DNA of 42,395 nucleotides. It comes from Vicugna vicugna (taxonomy: Eukaryota). This document shows, in pieces, positions 24,877-38,014 of the stretch. Position 1 is the stretch's first letter, and every line of letters starts with the position of its first letter. Under the pieces are notes generated by a model, which searched no databases, was not told where the DNA came from, and saw only the letters and a list, made by a program, of their open reading frames with translations. Position numbers and translations under genes: made by a program. The DNA lies in assembly GCA_013265495.1 (NCBI GenBank), contig PNXW01000496.1, forward strand, positions 1 through 42,395, read 5' to 3'.

Positions 24877-25072
24877 TCACTCCGTCCATCCACAATAGGC
24901 CGGGTAGGGTAGTCTGTAGTAACTGCCAGGATACCACCTTCTGTTCTGGGCTGCTGGACTGGCATTTGGCTTTACGTTCCAAGAGTACCTCCTCTGTAAA
25001 TAGTTCTCTCCAGGGGGACCAGGAGGAGGAATATGGCCTCTCTGGTAAACGTTCTGATTCTGTGAAAATGTT
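24877..25072 (-). CDS. DUSP11: DUSP11 (PIR1, RNA 5'-phosphatase) last coding exon (exon 9)
   Basis: TFSQNQNVYQRGHIPPPGPPGENYLQRRYSWNVKPNAS...YCGWTE*; AG at 25073-25074; minus AATAAA at 24621-24626 and 24630-24635. Confidence 0.92.
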
Positions 25073-26129
25073 CTTAAACAAAACAAAAGTAATAAACTAT
25101 TCTTAGCTTTAATAAAATACATAAGCTTTATAAAATAATACATAGACACTCTGGTTCTACTGTTTTCTACCTGTGTGATTTTAGCAGGCAAAATTGCTTA
25201 ATCTTTGGATTTCTTAGTTGTTTATAAAATGGAGCTGATAATACTTCCCATCTTCCTGGGTTGTTCTGAAGGTAAATTTAAGATGATGTATTTAAATTAC
25301 CCACCACAACACCCTGACACACTGTAGTTTCCAGAAGTCTTTCCACCTTTCCCTATAGAGATAAATGCCTACACTATTCTCATCAGATACTTTCCAAGTC
25401 TGGAAGGGATGATATGAAACAGAAGCTATTTATTTCTGAAAACAGAAACTTGCTTTCACTTTACAAATAAATACACAGATAAATCAATTATCAAGTGTAG
25501 AAATTCTAGCCATGGCATGTACAACAAACTTGGAAAATTAAAATTTGTTTCAAAAGCAAGATCAGGAAAATCTAATATGATCATACAATAGCAAATCTGG
25601 AAATCTGACAAGTAAACACGCCCCCCCCATCCTACTTAATCTGATTAAACTGGTTCATGCCTCCTTTTGGTCTATTTCTCCCTAGCATCTTTTCTGACTG
25701 TTGAATCATAACCTGTTGTTTTCACTTATCGTAAGTGAGCTATCACTTTCAATGGCTTTATAAAATTATCATAGTATAGATATAATAATTTACTTGGCTA
25801 TTTTTCACTGTTAGAAATACAAGCTGCTACCAATTTTTCCACTACTGCAAATGATGCTGGGATTAATGTCTCAGAACATATACCACTGTATCCTGAGCGC
25901 CTAGTCCAGTGTCTGATACATAGTAGGGAGTTTGAGAAATGTGGTGAATGATTTAAATGTAGCTTTTCCCATATTTTGAAGGATTTGCTTAGTCTCAACA
26001 TAGAATTACCATGTATGAGCATGTTTATGGCTGTGACAGTTATGTTTCAAAGGAGCTATATCACTTTCCAGTGCCACTGGCAACACAAGCACCATCTTTT
26101 TAAAATGTTTACGTCTTCTAAAAATGCCA

Positions 26130-26255
26130 GGGGGAGGGTAGAGCTCAGCGGTACAGCGCGTGATTAGGACGCACAAGGTCCTGGGTTCAATCCCAGTACC
26201 TATGTTAAAATGAATGAATGAACAAACCTAATTACCTACCCTCCCCCCAAAACAA
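26130..26255 (+). mobile_element. tRNA-derived SINE, camelid vic-1-like
   Basis: ggggggagggtagagctcagcggt (A box), gggttcaatccc (B box), aaacctaattacct tail; 11-bp TSD taaaaatgcca (26119-26129, 26256-26266). Confidence 0.85.
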
Positions 26256-27017
26256 TAAAAATGCCAACATCGTTTTGAAAGTTTAAAGATTACAATGTGC
26301 TGAAGTATTTTATTAACTCGTGTACTAATCAACAACAATCCCAAGCTATATGTTGTTAAAATTTTTACTTACAATATTATTAAAGTTTCCATCTGACTGA
26401 TGAGAAAATAGAAATTTAGAGATCTTACCCAAGATCGCACAGAGGGTGAAGAGCAGAGCCAGGATGCAAATGCAGGTCCAACCTGACAGCCACTACCCTG
26501 GGCTGTCTTATCAGAAACAGTTGCTAAATTAACAGGCAAAGAATAGTACCTTGCTAGTTTAACTGAGCTTTTCCCCATTTCCCAAGCAAATATATGTTTG
26601 TGATTTATGTGTTCAACTCCTTTACACATTTCTCTACTGAAATTTTACTGTTTTCCCTACAATTTGTGTTTACCCTTAAATAACAACCTTCCTTATTCTG
26701 AAAACTATACCAGTACCACTGTAGCCTAAGAATAAGAGCTCACTTCCGGTGCGCGCGTCAGATTGCTGGCTTAGACCAAGCTCAATAATCCATAAAAATC
26801 TCCAAGTCCTTTTCCCAGTTGCTTCTGAAAAGTCACGTATTCTCTGTCCTATACTTGATTTTCCAGCCCTAAATGCAAAATATGGAGCAAATGGTACCTC
26901 TTGGTTGACACTGACCAGCAAGGAAACACTAATTCTTCACTATTATCATAATGTATTTGTGTTAGTTTATAATATTAATTTCTATTTCAATTCTATAAAC
27001 AAGGAAAGCAGAGATAC

Positions 27018-34973: not shown

Positions 34974-36744
34974 GGTCCCGGGCCCTTCAGCACCCTCTAC
35001 GGGCGGGTCCTGGCCCCGCTGCCCGGGCGGGCCGCGGGCGCGGCCTCCGGCGGAGGCGGGAGCAGCTGGGGCGTCCCGGGTTCCCGTGTGCAGCCGCTGG
35101 GACGCGCGCAGTTTGGGACTCGCGGCGGTGCTGGCAGCACCAGTACAAGCGGCGGGGTCGCTAACAGCGTCTGTCCGACCCCCTCCACGATGTCCAAGGC
35201 AGAAGTGGCCAAGAAGCTGGCGGGGCGTGCGGCCGGGGAGAACCACGTGAGGAATAACCAAGTGCTGGGAACTGGAAGCGGTTCTACAATTGTCCACGCT
35301 GTGCAGCGATAGCTGAAAGAGCGAAACAGGAGAATCTGAACCCCGTCTGTATTCCCCCCTTCCTTCCAGGCCCGTCACCTCGTCCTGCAGTACGGCTTAA
35401 CTCAGTGACCGGGACGACACCCAGAGACTGACCTCGCCATAGACGGCGCTGATGAAGTAGATGCTGATCTCAGTCTCGTCAAGGGCAGTGGAGGCTGCCT
35501 GACCCAGGAGAAAATTGTGGCTGGCAATGCCAGTCGCTGCATTGTGATCGCCGATTTCAGGAAGGATTCAGAGAACCTCGGGGAGCAGTGGCACAACGGA
35601 ATCCCCATCGAGGTCATCCCCATGGCCCATGGCCCCGTGAGCCGAGCCGAACCGAGACCCAGAAGTTTGGGGGCGTGATTGAATTTCGAATGGCTGTGAA
35701 CAAGGCAGGCCCCCTGGTGACGGATAACGGGAATTTTATCCTGGACTGGAACTTTGACCGGGTACACAAATTGAGTTAACACAGCTATCAAAATGATCCC
35801 AGGCGTGGTGGACACGGGCCTGTTCATCGACACGGCCGAGAGAGTCTACTTTGGGATGCAGGATGGCTCCGTGAACATGAGGGAGAAGCCTTTCTGACCC
35901 GACCCTGCGGGAGCGGCCTGTGTTCATCTCGAGTCCCCAGCCCGCAGCCAAGGCGGATACGCCTCTCCAGGAGCCTTTGCCTCAACGTATCTGGGCCAGG
36001 TGGACAGCTTGGCAGGGTGGGGGGTGAGAGGCTTAAATCCAGTCTTCTGAAGTATTGTTATTAAATGTCTTTTAAAAAAGAGAAATATAAACATATATTT
36101 TTACTATTAAAAATACCCAGTTTTTTATGAAATAGAACTTGATTTCATGTTTTATATGAAATATTTACCAAAAATAAAAAGAGAAGAGGACTGACTTTTA
36201 AACTTTTAACTGAGCCTGTGGTTAAGCTTCTGAATATTGGGTTTGCTGAGAATGTAAGTCACAACTTTTCTTTAAACTAGTGAAATGAAGGGCCCAGCCA
36301 GCAGTAATTCCCACATGCCTTACTGGAAACTTTGACGTTTGTTTACTTTTCTAACACACTGTTTTGGTTTTAGTTTTTGTTGTGATCATGCACAATATAT
36401 ATTTATGTGTTTTAAGATGTGATTTATGAAAGTCTGGTGAGTGTAGCGACGTGGTATGTAGTGTCTCCGAATGTGTAAATTATCAGGGGGGAAATGTGGG
36501 GGTTCTTTTGCTGAGATCAAGGGGTTCATTCAGACCCCTGTGGTTGGAAGCAACTGGCCAGAAATCCTTGCCAGTACTGCCAAAGCACTGCTGTGAAACA
36601 CCTATAAACGACTGTCTTGTTTGTATTTTTTTGTTGTTGTTCCTTTATTATTACCTCCATTGTTTGGCATCAGAAGTTGTTATCTCTTTCTATTGTTTGA
36701 GGGTTGAAATAAAACAGTACGGTGCCATTTAGAAAAAAAAAAAA
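34974..36744 (+). pseudogene. RPIA: RPIA (ribose-5-phosphate isomerase A) processed pseudogene
   Basis: Intronless, starting at about codon 3 ([19 protein letters not shown]), no first ATG. Includes [36 protein letters not shown] and GVVDTGLF; ancestral stop 35895-35897. Frameshift to TAG at 35310 plus further indels. AATAAA 36708-36713 and poly(A) 36731-36744. TSD 34957-34973 vs 36743-36759 (15/17). Confidence 0.95.
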
Positions 36745-36759
36745 GATTACAGAGACCTA

Positions 36760-38014
36760 AGATCAGAAGCAAAGTTCCGCTGCCACAGGGGGACATAGTG
36801 CATGGAGGGTTCACCGAGGCGCAGGCGGCGAAGCTGAGGGCTCGCGAGGAGAGTGAGGAGGTGGTGGGCGACATCTTGGAGGTGCTGGTGGACCCAGTGA
36901 TGGATGCCGCCTGCAAATCCTACCTGGAACGGCAGGTGGGGCTGGATCCGCGTCCTCCAGACCCATCTCCTCTCTCCCTGACCCCTGCCTGCTGGACTGA
37001 GACCCTCTCTCCCCTCCGTAGTGCATTCCGTACGCAGTGAACAGGGCACGGCAGACCATACTCCATGTGGTCCAGATGAGATTTGTGCCCCGGGATGAGA
37101 GAGAACCCCACCTAGTAGACGACCCCACGTGGGCGGAGGACGAGGACCCCTCACCTTGCCGGATCGACACCTGGGCTTGGGGAGCCTTGCCCGTGCGGTG
37201 CGCGCCCTCCTCGGTGGAAGGGAAGACCAGCCAAGGCAAAGAAAGCTCCTTCCCACCTCCCGCCCCCGCCCGGCCGCGTCTCTATTCTCTTCAGCGCCTA
37301 GCCTCTCTGGTCCTGCCTTAGTTCCTCTGTCTCCTGTGCCCGCGTCTCGCCATCAGTTTTCTTCCCTCTCCCGCCTGGGGTTCCCATCTGAGAGCTGGGC
37401 CCCAGCCCCAACCTCCAGTTCCCTACTTTAATCCTAGGCCTACCGTCGCCAGGCTTCAGTTCCAAGCTGACCTTCCCCAGTCCTGGCCTCTGCTTTCTCG
37501 CCACGCACCTGGGGCTCCCCTCTGTGGCCCATAGCCCCAGATCCAAACTATGGCCAGGTGCCAAGTGGCCCAGCGGCTGGGTGGGGGAGGCCGAGTTGCT
37601 GGGTGAGATTTGGGTGGGCCACACCCGTGTACCCCCGCAGGGCCTGGACCCCAAGGATCAGGAGAGCCAGGATCTTCAGAAGGGGTCTCACCCTGCGCCT
37701 GGACTTCTCAAGGCCAAGTCCCAGGTGGTGAGACCATGTTGCTAAGCGCCGAAGATGGCTCCTGGTGTGAGCATGTGGAAACCAGCCACCCAGGAGCTGC
37801 TTAGCCCTGCTGAACCTCAACATGAGGACAAAGAGGGCAGCACCTCTCGTCCCATCCAAACGGGTGCCCCAGAACCGCAGGTGATGGTGGCACCGCTAAC
37901 AGAAAAGTCAGGTCTCCAATATCATCACTCCACTGCAAACACCTGCCCCATCCTGGGCCCTGAACCTCAGGCAGTGGGAATCTGCCTACCTTCTGTCTGT
38001 CTGCCAGAAATAAA
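36760..38014 (+). pseudogene. C2orf81-like unprocessed pseudogene, 5'-truncated with internal deletion
   Basis: Exon ..36935 reads VPLPQGDIVHG..EEVVGDILEVLVDPVMDAACKSYLERQ. GT-AG intron 36936-37021. Exon 37022-37240 reads CIPYAVNRAR...DPTWAEDEDPSPCRIDTWA. The C-terminal part reads [39 protein letters not shown] (37961-37963). Lesions: TAA at 37743-37745, a late frameshift and GAAAGC at the expected donor (37241). AATAAA 38009-38014. Confidence 0.8.

What the first reader, a model, noticed from the sequence alone, without database searches (positions are those of the whole stretch)
24877..36800. DUSP11 has no exons 1-3 or promoter in their expected place
Seen: exons 9-5 are intact and an exon 4 homolog is present, but upstream there is only ~1.2 kb of intron-like sequence, the RPIA retrocopy and then a C2orf81-like exon. 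I found nothing encoding the N-terminus (IPERWKDY, FIAFKVPL, IIDLTYT) between 33730 and the window end. Established: DUSP11 removes 5'-triphosphates from RNA and dampens RIG-I signalling. Inference: this is (a) a lineage-specific decapitation of DUSP11, (b) a partial duplicate with the functional gene elsewhere, (c) a gene whose real exons 1-4 lie beyond the window, with this decayed block nested in a much enlarged intron 4, or (d) a misassembly.
Basis: partly seen in the sequence, partly recalled or inferred. Interest (0 to 1): 0.72.

Follow-up and report, generated by a model that had tools for sequence, protein, structure and literature searches.

The report
Partial duplicate of camelid DUSP11 gene
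The DUSP11 gene that seems to have lost its front end is a truncated, decaying second copy, while a complete DUSP11 gene sits on another contig of the same camelid genome assembly, so this is an ordinary dead duplicate and not a gene loss.

Summary
On this 42.4-kb contig (C263, which is the whole window), DUSP11 exons 9-5 are intact on the minus strand. An exon 4 relic follows, then 1.25 kb of intron 3, an RPIA processed retrocopy and a C2orf81-like exon. There are no exons 1-3. The same assembly has a complete, splice-perfect 9-exon, 332-codon DUSP11 on contig C8003, next to a DUF4629 gene. Window 17,225-34,973 is a paralogous copy of the end of C8003, with 361 differences in 17,075 aligned bases and Ts/Tv 2.06. 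Five blocks about 4.6% diverged alternate with five blocks about 0.5% diverged, which fits an old duplication patched by gene conversion. The exon 4 relic has 7 amino-acid changes and its splice donor is GG instead of GT. The copy breaks off in intron 3 and joins a truncated C2orf81-like exon through 3-5 bp of microhomology. The poly(A)-tailed retrocopy, flanked by a target-site duplication, sits about 10 bp from that junction. Fourteen DNA runs from six studies and two organisms hold about 90% of the copy-specific words. NCBI annotates "DUSP11-like" genes in Bactrian camel and alpaca, and the camel one has exactly this exon 4-9 structure. Verdict: reading (b), a partial duplicate with the functional gene elsewhere. 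Read-level proof of the junctions was not obtained.

The parts
17225..34973 (-). Duplicated block paralogous to C8003:489035-471749 (DUSP11 intron 3 to 7 kb past exon 9). It is a mosaic of five blocks about 4.6% diverged and five blocks about 0.5% diverged.
   Evidence: 361 mismatches in 17,075 ungapped columns; Ts/Tv 2.06; longest mismatch-free run 1,440 bp against a maximum of 694 in 2,000 permutations
24877..25072 (-). DUSP11 exon 9 copy (includes the stop codon), 0 differences from C8003
27018..27203 (-). DUSP11 exon 8 copy, 1 base difference, same peptide, splice sites intact
27432..27507 (-). DUSP11 exon 7 copy, 1 base difference, same peptide, splice sites intact
27764..27810 (-). DUSP11 exon 6 copy, identical to C8003
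30020..30080 (-). DUSP11 exon 5 copy (encodes the HCTHGLNRTG catalytic loop), identical to C8003
33604..33727 (-). Exon 4 relic: 8 base changes in 124 nt (7 replacements, 3 of them at prolines conserved in the human/macaque, oryx, whale and camel sequences seen; 1 silent). Acceptor intact; donor GTGAGT changed to GGGAGG.
33728..34976 (-). Remnant of DUSP11 intron 3. It contains a mini-exon at 34841-34855 that reads MIALH followed by GT, the first coding exon of the Bactrian camel 'DUSP11-like' model.
34960..34975 (.). Left copy of the target-site duplication of the retrocopy (core CAGAGACCTA at 34965-34974)
   Evidence: C8003 has a single copy at the empty site
34977..36744 (+). RPIA processed retrocopy: all nine parental exon blocks without introns, poly(A) run at 36733-36744, reading frame broken. 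Its 5' end of about 300 bp still has CpG-island character.
36745..36775 (.). Right copy of the target-site duplication (36745-36761) plus the last bases of DUSP11 intron 3-derived sequence
36771..36775 (.). Duplication junction: AAAGT is shared by the DUSP11-derived side and, in part (3-5 bp), by the C2orf81-family side
36771..37040 (+). 5'-truncated C2orf81-like (DUF4639) exon. Copies on C430, C850 and C10460 continue further left through the rest of the exon and its acceptor.
39051..39380 (+). Short-chain dehydrogenase (adh_short) exon of the same multi-copy segment, which runs from 36771 to the contig end
12926..16265 (-). TPRKB exons (Pfam CGI-121) downstream of the DUSP11 copy: 16104-16265, 15135-15258, 13604-13780, 12926-13074
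2159..2866 (-). Open GNAT acetyltransferase ORF. The name 'NAT8-like' is recalled; Pfam only says GNAT.
1640..14132 (+). Stretch that also occurs on contig C2360, which ends at the point matching 14132. The parts compared were 99% identical (1640-5900), 97.5% (12484-14132) and 100% (12900-14132). The middle part was not compared.

Best explanation
The window is a small contig carrying a truncated paralogue of DUSP11, that is, an unprocessed partial-duplicate pseudogene. SHOWN: an old segmental duplication copied the region from DUSP11 intron 3 through exon 9. Judging by contig C2360, the copy probably extends on through TPRKB and a GNAT gene. SHOWN: at its upstream end, the copy is joined within 3-5 bp of microhomology to a 5'-truncated exon of a multi-copy C2orf81-like/SDR-like segment. 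The two decapitated genes therefore lie head to head, and the DUSP11 copy has no exons 1-3 and no DUSP11 promoter. SHOWN: an RPIA mRNA was later retrotransposed into the intron 3 remnant about 10 bp from that junction. It has a poly(A) tail and a target-site duplication of about 15 bp, and C8003 shows the empty site. INFERRED: interlocus gene conversion with the intact gene has since re-homogenised about 60% of the compared block, including exons 5-8. Where it did not reach, the copy drifted about 4.6%. There the exon 4 relic collected 7 replacements and lost its GT donor. SHOWN: the working DUSP11 is the intact 332-codon gene on contig C8003.
For: The window is the whole of contig C263. C8003 has nine DUSP11 exons with GT-AG at every intron. 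They splice to a 332-aa protein with 3 differences from alpaca X1. Exon 1 lies in CpG-rich sequence (observed/expected 0.74), and a DUF4629 ORF lies about 12 kb upstream on the opposite strand. Window 17225-34973 aligns to C8003 489035-471749 with the same exon spacing. The differences look evolutionary: Ts/Tv 2.06, and 72 of 361 are in CpG context. Diverged blocks total 303 of 6,582 (4.6%; the four blocks of about 1 kb or more are 4.1-4.9% and the 149-column block is 6.0%). Homogenised blocks total 58 of 10,504 (0.55%). The clustering exceeds all 2,000 permutations. The high-identity blocks are mostly intron, so they do not reflect selection on exons. Lesions of the exon 4 relic are. With the donor gone, modelled transcripts stop at codon 17 (exon skipped) or codon 60 (cryptic GT). 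The exon 1-3 region is single-copy in the assembly. Fourteen DNA runs from 6 studies and 2 organisms hold 0.89-0.92 of 459 sampled words of window 33010-37300. NCBI names a 'DUSP11-like' gene beside DUSP11 on the same chromosome in Camelus bactrianus. Its 235-aa product is MIALH plus exons 4-9, and MIALH followed by a GT donor is encoded in the window's intron 3 remnant and at the matching site of C8003.
Against: No reads or contigs were laid across the junctions, so their physical continuity in independent samples is inferred, not seen. One of the best-holding runs may be the assembly's own source. Contigs C8003, C2360 and C968 all end inside or at the edge of this block, so the assembler struggled here. 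Blocks of 99.9-100% identity could be collapsed or cross-polished sequence rather than gene conversion. Alpaca's annotated 'DUSP11-like' protein is full length (332 aa) and differs from DUSP11 in exon 1, which this assembly's single exon 1-3 set does not explain. The retrocopy is slightly more diverged from its parent (non-CpG 4.9%; 3' UTR block 91.4% identical) than the diverged duplicate blocks are from each other (non-CpG 3.9%). That is awkward if the retrocopy inserted after the duplication, unless conversion has also lowered divergence in those blocks.
Confidence: 0.8

Rival explanations
1. Assembly artefact or haplotig. C263 would be a chimeric or redundant small contig, or an alternative structural haplotype of the single DUSP11 locus, and not a second locus.
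For: C263 is only 42 kb. C8003, C2360 and C968 end within or at the edge of the shared block. Large parts are 99-100% identical to those contigs. No read-level check was obtained.
Against: Blocks at 4.1-6.0% divergence with Ts/Tv 2.06 are, by my own estimate rather than any call, far above allelic diversity, and they are not error-like. The junction has 3-5 bp of microhomology and not a long shared repeat. The retrocopy is 6.7% diverged from its parent, is flanked by a target-site duplication and is absent from C8003, so it cannot be a recent polymorphism. Fourteen runs from 6 studies and 2 organisms hold about 90% of the copy-specific words. Independent annotations of camel and alpaca list a separate DUSP11-like locus.
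Confidence: 0.1
2. Reading (c). The window's exons 5-9 would belong to a working second DUSP11 gene whose exons 1-4 lie beyond the contig end. The exon 4 relic, the retrocopy and the C2orf81-like/SDR-like segment would then sit inside a greatly enlarged intron 4.
For: Exons 5-9 and all their splice sites are intact. Alpaca is annotated with a 332-aa 'DUSP11-like isoform X1' that differs from DUSP11 at residue 23 in exon 1, so a second exon 1 may exist in lamine camelids. A near-identical second 5' half could be collapsed into C8003 in this assembly.
Against: Protein and DNA searches of the whole assembly find only one copy of exons 1-3, contiguous with its own exons 4-9, and only two exon 4 copies. 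The homology with C8003 runs without a break from intron 3 through exon 4 into intron 4, so this reading needs a further, separate exon 4 duplication. Two plus-strand gene fragments would have to lie inside the intron. The intactness of exons 5-8 is explained by conversion tracts that also cover introns.
Confidence: 0.07
3. Reading (a). This would be a true lineage-specific decapitation of the only DUSP11 gene.
For: Within the window itself there are no exons 1-3 and no promoter.
Against: An intact DUSP11 with all splice sites, a CpG-rich 5' end and a DUF4629 upstream neighbour is present on C8003. Alpaca and camel have full-length DUSP11 proteins on record.
Confidence: 0.02

Closest known systems
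Camelus bactrianus 'RNA/RNP complex-1-interacting phosphatase-like' (XP_074197592.1, P0006, 235 aa)
   Same: It has the same architecture as the window copy: no exons 1-3, and a start in a 5-codon mini-exon (MIALH) that the window encodes in its intron 3 remnant with a GT donor, followed by exons 4-9. It is a locus separate from DUSP11 on the same chromosome.
   Different: The camel model has an exon 4 with one difference from camel DUSP11 and gives an open 235-aa product. The window's exon 4 has 7 replacements and no GT donor, so canonical splicing gives early stops. Orthology is inferred, because the camel locus could not be fetched.
Intact DUSP11 of the same assembly (C8003:465155-481922) and alpaca DUSP11 X1 (XP_006219062.2, P0002)
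   Same: Exons 5-9 encode identical peptides (2 silent base differences in 566 nt). The intron spacing is the same and 17 kb are collinear.
   Different: The window copy lacks exons 1-3 and the promoter, has a decayed exon 4, and adjoins an RPIA retrocopy and a C2orf81-like exon instead of intron 3 and exon 3.
Unprocessed partial-duplicate pseudogenes kept similar to their parent by gene conversion (the CYP21A1P/CYP21A2 type of pair; recalled, not tested)
   Same: A paralogue with introns, a mosaic of converted and diverged tracts, and disabling lesions in the unconverted tracts.
   Different: Here the copy is truncated at a rearrangement junction. No transfer of lesions into the working gene was seen: exon 4 of C8003 is identical to alpaca's.
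L1-mediated processed pseudogenes (here of RPIA)
   Same: Intronless copy of all nine parental exon blocks, a poly(A) tail, a target-site duplication of about 15 bp, an empty site in the paralogue, and a broken frame.
   Different: Its 5' end has kept 28 of 31 parental CpGs, against 33 of 51 in the rest (Fisher p = 0.01), and it lies about 10 bp from a duplication junction.

Membership tests
Functional DUSP11 gene (atypical dual-specificity phosphatase, Pfam PF00782) | Catalytic HCX5R loop encoded | tested here: met
   Exon 5 at 30020-30080 reads DRLIGVHCTHGLNRTGYLICR, identical to alpaca
Functional DUSP11 gene (atypical dual-specificity phosphatase, Pfam PF00782) | N-terminal part of the phosphatase (exons 1-3) and a start codon present at the locus | tested here: not met
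   No match to residues 1-94 in the window. The only copy in the assembly is on C8003.
Functional DUSP11 gene (atypical dual-specificity phosphatase, Pfam PF00782) | All coding exons spliceable in frame | tested here: not met
   The exon 4 donor is GG instead of GT. Skipping the exon stops at codon 17 and the cryptic GT stops at codon 60.
Unprocessed partial-duplicate pseudogene (segmental duplication) | Intron-containing paralogue collinear with an intact parent gene in the same genome | tested here: met
   17 kb collinear with C8003, with the same exon spacing. The parent gene is intact.
Unprocessed partial-duplicate pseudogene (segmental duplication) | Defined breakpoint with a repair-type junction | tested here: met
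   Homology to C8003 ends at 36775 and homology to the C2orf81-like copies starts at 36771, with a 3-5 bp overlap
Unprocessed partial-duplicate pseudogene (segmental duplication) | Exists as a second locus in real DNA of independent individuals | tested here: inconclusive
   14 runs from 6 studies and 2 organisms hold 0.89-0.92 of the copy-specific words, but no reads were laid over the junctions and no depth was measured
Processed pseudogene (RPIA retrocopy) | Intronless match to the parent's exons, a poly(A) tail, a target-site duplication and a disrupted frame | tested here: met
   Nine parental exon blocks on C12265 match end to end. Poly(A) is at 36733-36744. The duplication is at 34960-34975 and 36745-36761, with an empty site in C8003. 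Internal indels of 2, 1, 5 and 5 nt and five different reading frames.
Interlocus gene conversion between duplicates | Identical tracts significantly longer than expected from the overall divergence, not confined to exons | tested here: met
   Longest clean run 1,440 bp against a maximum of 694 in 2,000 permutations. The block 33109-29971 has 3 differences in 3,139 columns and is almost all intron. Assembly collapse as an alternative cause is not excluded.

The most novel reading that the evidence does not exclude
The truncated copy may be a camelid-wide 'DUSP11-like' locus that predates the split of camels and llamas, and not just debris. It may have gained a new promoter from the CpG island carried in by the RPIA retrocopy. 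The retrocopy's 5' end lies about 120 bp upstream of the MIALH mini-exon, head to head, and has kept 28 of 31 parental CpGs. In Camelus this would drive an N-terminally truncated DUSP11 that keeps the catalytic loop and the C-terminal tail. In the lamine lineage the same locus would now be dying, with the exon 4 donor lost, while still exchanging sequence with the working DUSP11 by gene conversion.
Probability: 0.15. Interest if true: 0.5.

Novelty: new member of a known kind. Interest (0 to 1): 0.22.

Why it matters
DUSP11 removes 5'-triphosphates from RNA and sets RIG-I sensitivity (Choi et al. 2020, PMC7706711; search listing and abstract only). A real loss in camelids would have been notable for their antiviral biology. 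This work shows there is no loss: the gene is intact elsewhere in the assembly. What remains is practical. Annotators and variant callers working on camelid DUSP11, TPRKB and the GNAT gene must expect a near-identical paralogue that can attract reads and may exchange sequence with the working gene. The locus is also a tidy example of a duplication junction, a retrocopy insertion and a conversion mosaic within 2 kb.

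Tried and rejected
(1) Laying reads and contigs of three DNA runs and one RNA run over 24-38.5 kb gave no result. Junction continuity, copy depth and transcription therefore stay untested.

(2) RNA runs X15-X20 hold only 0.05-0.17 of the words of 33010-37300.

(3) An exact scan of metagenome contigs for a 30-base word across the junction found 0 matches. This is uninformative, because host DNA is not expected there.

(4) My first search of window 1-17224 suggested that the left flank was single-copy. 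That was wrong. Only 38 of 67,185 candidates were scored and L1-like repeats filled the list. Repeat-free queries then found contig C2360.

(5) Fetching C2360 in full was not possible, so its left breakpoint near window 1640 is known only from search coordinates.

(6) A search seeded with the camel truncated protein (112 proteins at E<=1e-60) showed no further camelid isoform clusters. It did not explain alpaca's full-length 'DUSP11-like' model.

(7) Pfam gave nothing for the exon-sized DUSP11 pieces (5 of 9 pieces had no family). They were identified by PDB, homology and tblastn searches instead.

(8) Purifying selection as the reason exons 5-9 are identical was rejected, because the identical tracts are mostly intron.

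(9) A hybrid or contaminant origin of the diverged blocks was rejected, because they alternate at kilobase scale with blocks that differ at 0-3 positions.

(10) The literature search 'DUSP11' + 'camel' (8 papers, 6 listed) showed nothing on a camelid DUSP11 duplicate in the titles and abstract starts listed.

(11) Earlier scan notes had nothing on this locus.

Full report
WHAT THE WINDOW IS. The window is the whole of contig C263 (42,395 bases) of a 2.03-Gb, 12,405-contig assembly. The closest DUSP11 proteins on record are alpaca isoforms (97-98% over exon 9), with Camelus at 88%. The source is therefore a lamine camelid.

CHECK OF THE OBSERVATION. tblastn was run with seven DUSP11 proteins, and I read the output for alpaca P0002 and macaque P0044. 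It finds exons 9, 8, 7, 6 and 5 on the minus strand at 94-100% identity to alpaca, and an exon 4 homologue at 72% over a stretch that includes intron flank. Nothing better than chance (E>1) covers residues 1-94. The exon 4 homologue matches the human DUSP11 crystal-structure chains 4jmj, 4nyh and 4mbb (E about 3e-15). Upstream of it, Pfam identifies RPIA pieces (PF06026, E 3.6e-26 and 3.6e-7), a C2orf81-family exon (DUF4639, E 1e-11) and a short-chain dehydrogenase exon (adh_short, E 2.2e-12) on the plus strand.

THE INTACT GENE IS ELSEWHERE IN THE SAME ASSEMBLY. Searching the assembly with alpaca DUSP11 gives two sets of exons 4-9, one on C263 and one on contig C8003. It gives only one set of exons 1-3, on C8003 and in order with its own exons 4-9. 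On C8003 the nine exons (465155-481922) all have GT-AG introns. They splice to 332 codons with 3 residue differences from alpaca X1, and exons 1-4 encode exactly the alpaca peptide. Exon 1 lies in CpG-rich sequence (GC 0.51, observed/expected 0.74 over 1.1 kb). A 662-codon open frame with a DUF4629 domain (E 1.4e-64) lies about 12 kb upstream on the opposite strand. From memory, DUF4629 is the C2orf78 family and C2orf78 is DUSP11's upstream neighbour in human. A DNA search with C8003:463001-470000 finds no second copy of the exon 1-3 region; its other hits are repeats of roughly 80-330 bp at 71-86%.

THE WINDOW COPY IS A PARALOGUE, NOT THE SAME SEQUENCE. Window 17225-34973 aligns on the minus strand to C8003 489035-471749, and C8003 ends there (489,035 bases). 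Over 17,075 ungapped columns there are 361 mismatches (2.1%). Ts/Tv is 2.06 and 72 mismatches are in CpG context, which is the signature of evolution and not of sequencing error.

The differences are strongly clustered. Five blocks totalling 6,582 columns carry 303 mismatches (4.6%; the four blocks of about 1 kb or more are 4.1-4.9% and the 149-column block is 6.0%). Five blocks totalling 10,504 columns carry 58 (0.55%). The block 33109-29971, almost all of it intron 4, has 3 differences in 3,139 columns. The longest mismatch-free run is 1,440 bp, while 2,000 random placements of the same 361 mismatches never exceeded 694. I read this as one old duplication overwritten in places by interlocus gene conversion. 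Collapse or cross-polishing during assembly could imitate the near-identical blocks, and I could not exclude that.

STATE OF THE COPY. Exons 5-9 differ from C8003 at 2 of 566 bases. Both changes leave the peptide unchanged, and every splice site is kept. Because the identical tracts cover introns as much as exons, this is homogenisation and not selection.

The exon 4 relic (33604-33727) lies in a diverged block. It has 8 base changes in 124 nt, of which 7 are replacements and 1 is silent. Three of the replacements hit prolines that are the same in the human/macaque, oryx, pilot whale, camel and alpaca sequences. Its donor reads GGGAGG where C8003 has GTGAGT.

The exon has no stop or frameshift. 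If the old boundary were still used, a 234-codon frame would stay open. Without a GT donor, skipping the exon stops at codon 17, and the nearest cryptic GT (+5 nt) stops at codon 60. A product starting at exon 5 or later would lack the N-terminal part of the phosphatase.

THE UPSTREAM BREAKPOINT. Homology to C8003 runs through 1.25 kb of intron 3 to 34975. It is then interrupted by the RPIA retrocopy, resumes after the poly(A) run (36745) and ends at 36775.

The retrocopy (34977-36744, plus strand) matches nine exon blocks of an intron-containing RPIA gene on C12265, with no introns (89-98% per block; 93.3% over the joined blocks). It ends in 12 A's. It is flanked by direct repeats of about 15 bp (34960-34975 and 36745-36761, with the core CAGAGACCTA exact). 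C8003 has a single copy of that repeat at an empty site. The retrocopy's frame is broken by internal indels of 2, 1, 5 and 5 nt and is spread over five reading frames. This is a standard L1-type insertion into the duplicate, made after the duplication.

From 36771 the window matches a different, multi-copy segment: C430 at 95%, C10460 at 92%, C850 at 86%, and shorter pieces on C8189, C2360, C12391 and C9280. In C430, C850 and C10460 the sequence continues to the left through the rest of a C2orf81-like exon and its acceptor. Those left flanks match one another at 87-91%, but none of them matches the window. The window's C2orf81-like exon is therefore cut off inside its coding sequence. It is joined to DUSP11 intron 3 sequence with only AAAG(T) in common, which is a repair-type junction and not a join through a long repeat. 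Two decapitated genes thus lie head to head, with the retrocopy about 10 bp from the junction. I cannot say whether that closeness is coincidence or reflects a shared fragile or nicked site.

THE DOWNSTREAM SIDE. The window also carries TPRKB exons (Pfam CGI-121; 12926-16265, minus strand) and an open GNAT acetyltransferase frame (2159-2866, minus strand). I recall NAT8-type genes in this neighbourhood in human. Contig C2360 (about 29.6 kb) matches window 1640-5900 at 99% and 12900-14132 at 100%, and the 1,649 bases before its end at 97.5%. It stops there. A 10-kb contig, C968, matches window 7-1302 at 96%. The second representation of this region thus seems to be C2360, then a gap of about 3 kb, then the end of C8003. 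The duplicated block probably spans about 1.6-35 kb of the window. The intervening parts were not compared, because C2360 could not be fetched in full.

IS THE COPY REAL DNA? Fourteen DNA runs from six studies and two coded organisms hold 0.89-0.92 of 459 sampled 31-mers of window 33010-37300. This stretch is made up of diverged duplicate blocks, the retrocopy and both junctions. By my rough estimate, a genome with only C8003, the RPIA parent and the C430-type copies would share about a quarter of these words. One of the best holders may be the assembly's own source.

INDEPENDENT ANNOTATIONS. NCBI lists, on one Bactrian camel chromosome, DUSP11 (XP_074197463-66) and a separate 'DUSP11-like' gene (XP_074197592.1). 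Its 235-aa product is MIALH followed by exons 4-9. MIALH followed by GT is encoded in the window at 34855-34841 (minus strand), about 120 bp from the retrocopy, and at the matching place in C8003 intron 3. That is what a gene model built on a copy truncated in intron 3 would look like. I infer, without having seen the camel DNA, that the camel locus is the orthologue of this copy and that the duplication predates the camel-llama split.

The divergences do not contradict an old event: 3.9% at non-CpG sites in unconverted blocks, and 4.9% between the retrocopy and its parent. Their order is slightly awkward, because the retrocopy looks no younger than the duplication it inserted into.

Alpaca is annotated with DUSP11 and a 332-aa 'DUSP11-like isoform X1' that differs at residues 23, 210 and 276. 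A second exon 1 is not present in this assembly, and I cannot explain that model. It keeps reading (c), or a third copy, alive at low probability. Truncated or diverged DUSP11 models are also on record for sperm whale (starting in intron 3, with a diverged exon 4), dolphins, mink, fox and fur seal, so such copies are not unusual.

A SIDE OBSERVATION THAT FEEDS THE BOLDEST READING. The first approximately 300 bases of the retrocopy (derived from RPIA exon 1) have GC 0.71 and CpG observed/expected 0.90, the same as the parental exon (0.86). The surrounding intron and the retrocopy's 3' UTR are at 0-0.15 in most 200-base steps. That part has kept 28 of 31 parental CpGs, against 33 of 51 in the rest (Fisher p = 0.01). 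This suggests a small island that stayed unmethylated, lying head to head with the mini-exon. Whether it acts as a promoter is untested.

COMPARISON AND VERDICT. This locus works like, and qualifies as, an unprocessed partial-duplicate pseudogene with an embedded processed pseudogene. It fails the tests for a functional DUSP11 gene (no exons 1-3, unspliceable exon 4), although it keeps the catalytic-loop exon. Nothing here suggests that camelids lack that function. I found no paper on a camelid DUSP11 duplicate (titles and abstract starts only). Interest is low. The finding is explained, apart from the unresolved alpaca model and the untested promoter idea.

Noticed in passing
window 36771-42395; also C430:416178-421817, C10460:380751-384962 and 79741-81403, C850:3061969-3067499, C8189:13613209-13614838, C2360:9585-11125: A segment with a C2orf81-like exon and short-chain dehydrogenase exons is present in at least six places in the assembly at 86-95% identity (C2360's second piece at 71%). 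In the C430 copy the C2orf81-like exon has an in-frame stop, while the C850 copy is open and may be the working gene.
   Followed up: partly
window 34977-35300: The 5' end of the RPIA processed pseudogene keeps CpG-island character (GC 0.71, CpG observed/expected 0.90) and 28 of 31 parental CpGs. The rest of the retrocopy keeps 33 of 51, and most flanking 200-base steps are at 0-0.15. This is unusual for a retrocopy 6.7% diverged from its parent.
   Followed up: partly
G000:C11184:298573-299181: An intronless copy of TPRKB, 95-97% identical to the window's four TPRKB exons, with a 136-codon open frame covering Pfam CGI-121 positions 41-159. It is a young processed retrocopy that may still be coding.
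   Followed up: no
window 2159-2866 (-) and C2360:17613-21864: An open GNAT acetyltransferase frame of about 235 codons from its first ATG lies 22 kb downstream of the DUSP11 copy. The region has a 99% identical second representation on C2360, so this gene and part of TPRKB may also be duplicated.
   Followed up: partly
proteins P0056 and P0002 (alpaca): Alpaca's annotated 'DUSP11-like isoform X1' is full length (332 aa) and differs from DUSP11 X1 at residues 23, 210 and 276. This assembly has only one exon 1-3 set, so the model's origin (a third copy, far-upstream exons or filled-in sequence) is unexplained.
   Followed up: partly
protein P0014 (sperm whale), P0016 and P0125 (dolphins): The sperm whale's 240-aa DUSP11 model starts in what looks like the end of intron 3 and has a diverged exon 4. 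Dolphin 'DUSP11-like' models carry many replacements. DUSP11 duplicates or relics may be widespread in cetartiodactyls.
   Followed up: no
ends of C8003 (489035), C2360 (29633), C968 (1) and C263 (1): Contigs C8003, C2360 and C968 end inside or at the edge of the duplicated block, and C263 itself stops where only C968 still matches it. Window 14133-17224, with the 5' exons of TPRKB, was found only on C263 by a DNA search of 12900-17224.
   Followed up: partly
window 8735-12880: Dispersed repeats with very many copies genome-wide at 69-91% identity. They are probably L1-derived, but that name is my guess and was not tested. They swamped the first copy-number search of the left flank.
   Followed up: no
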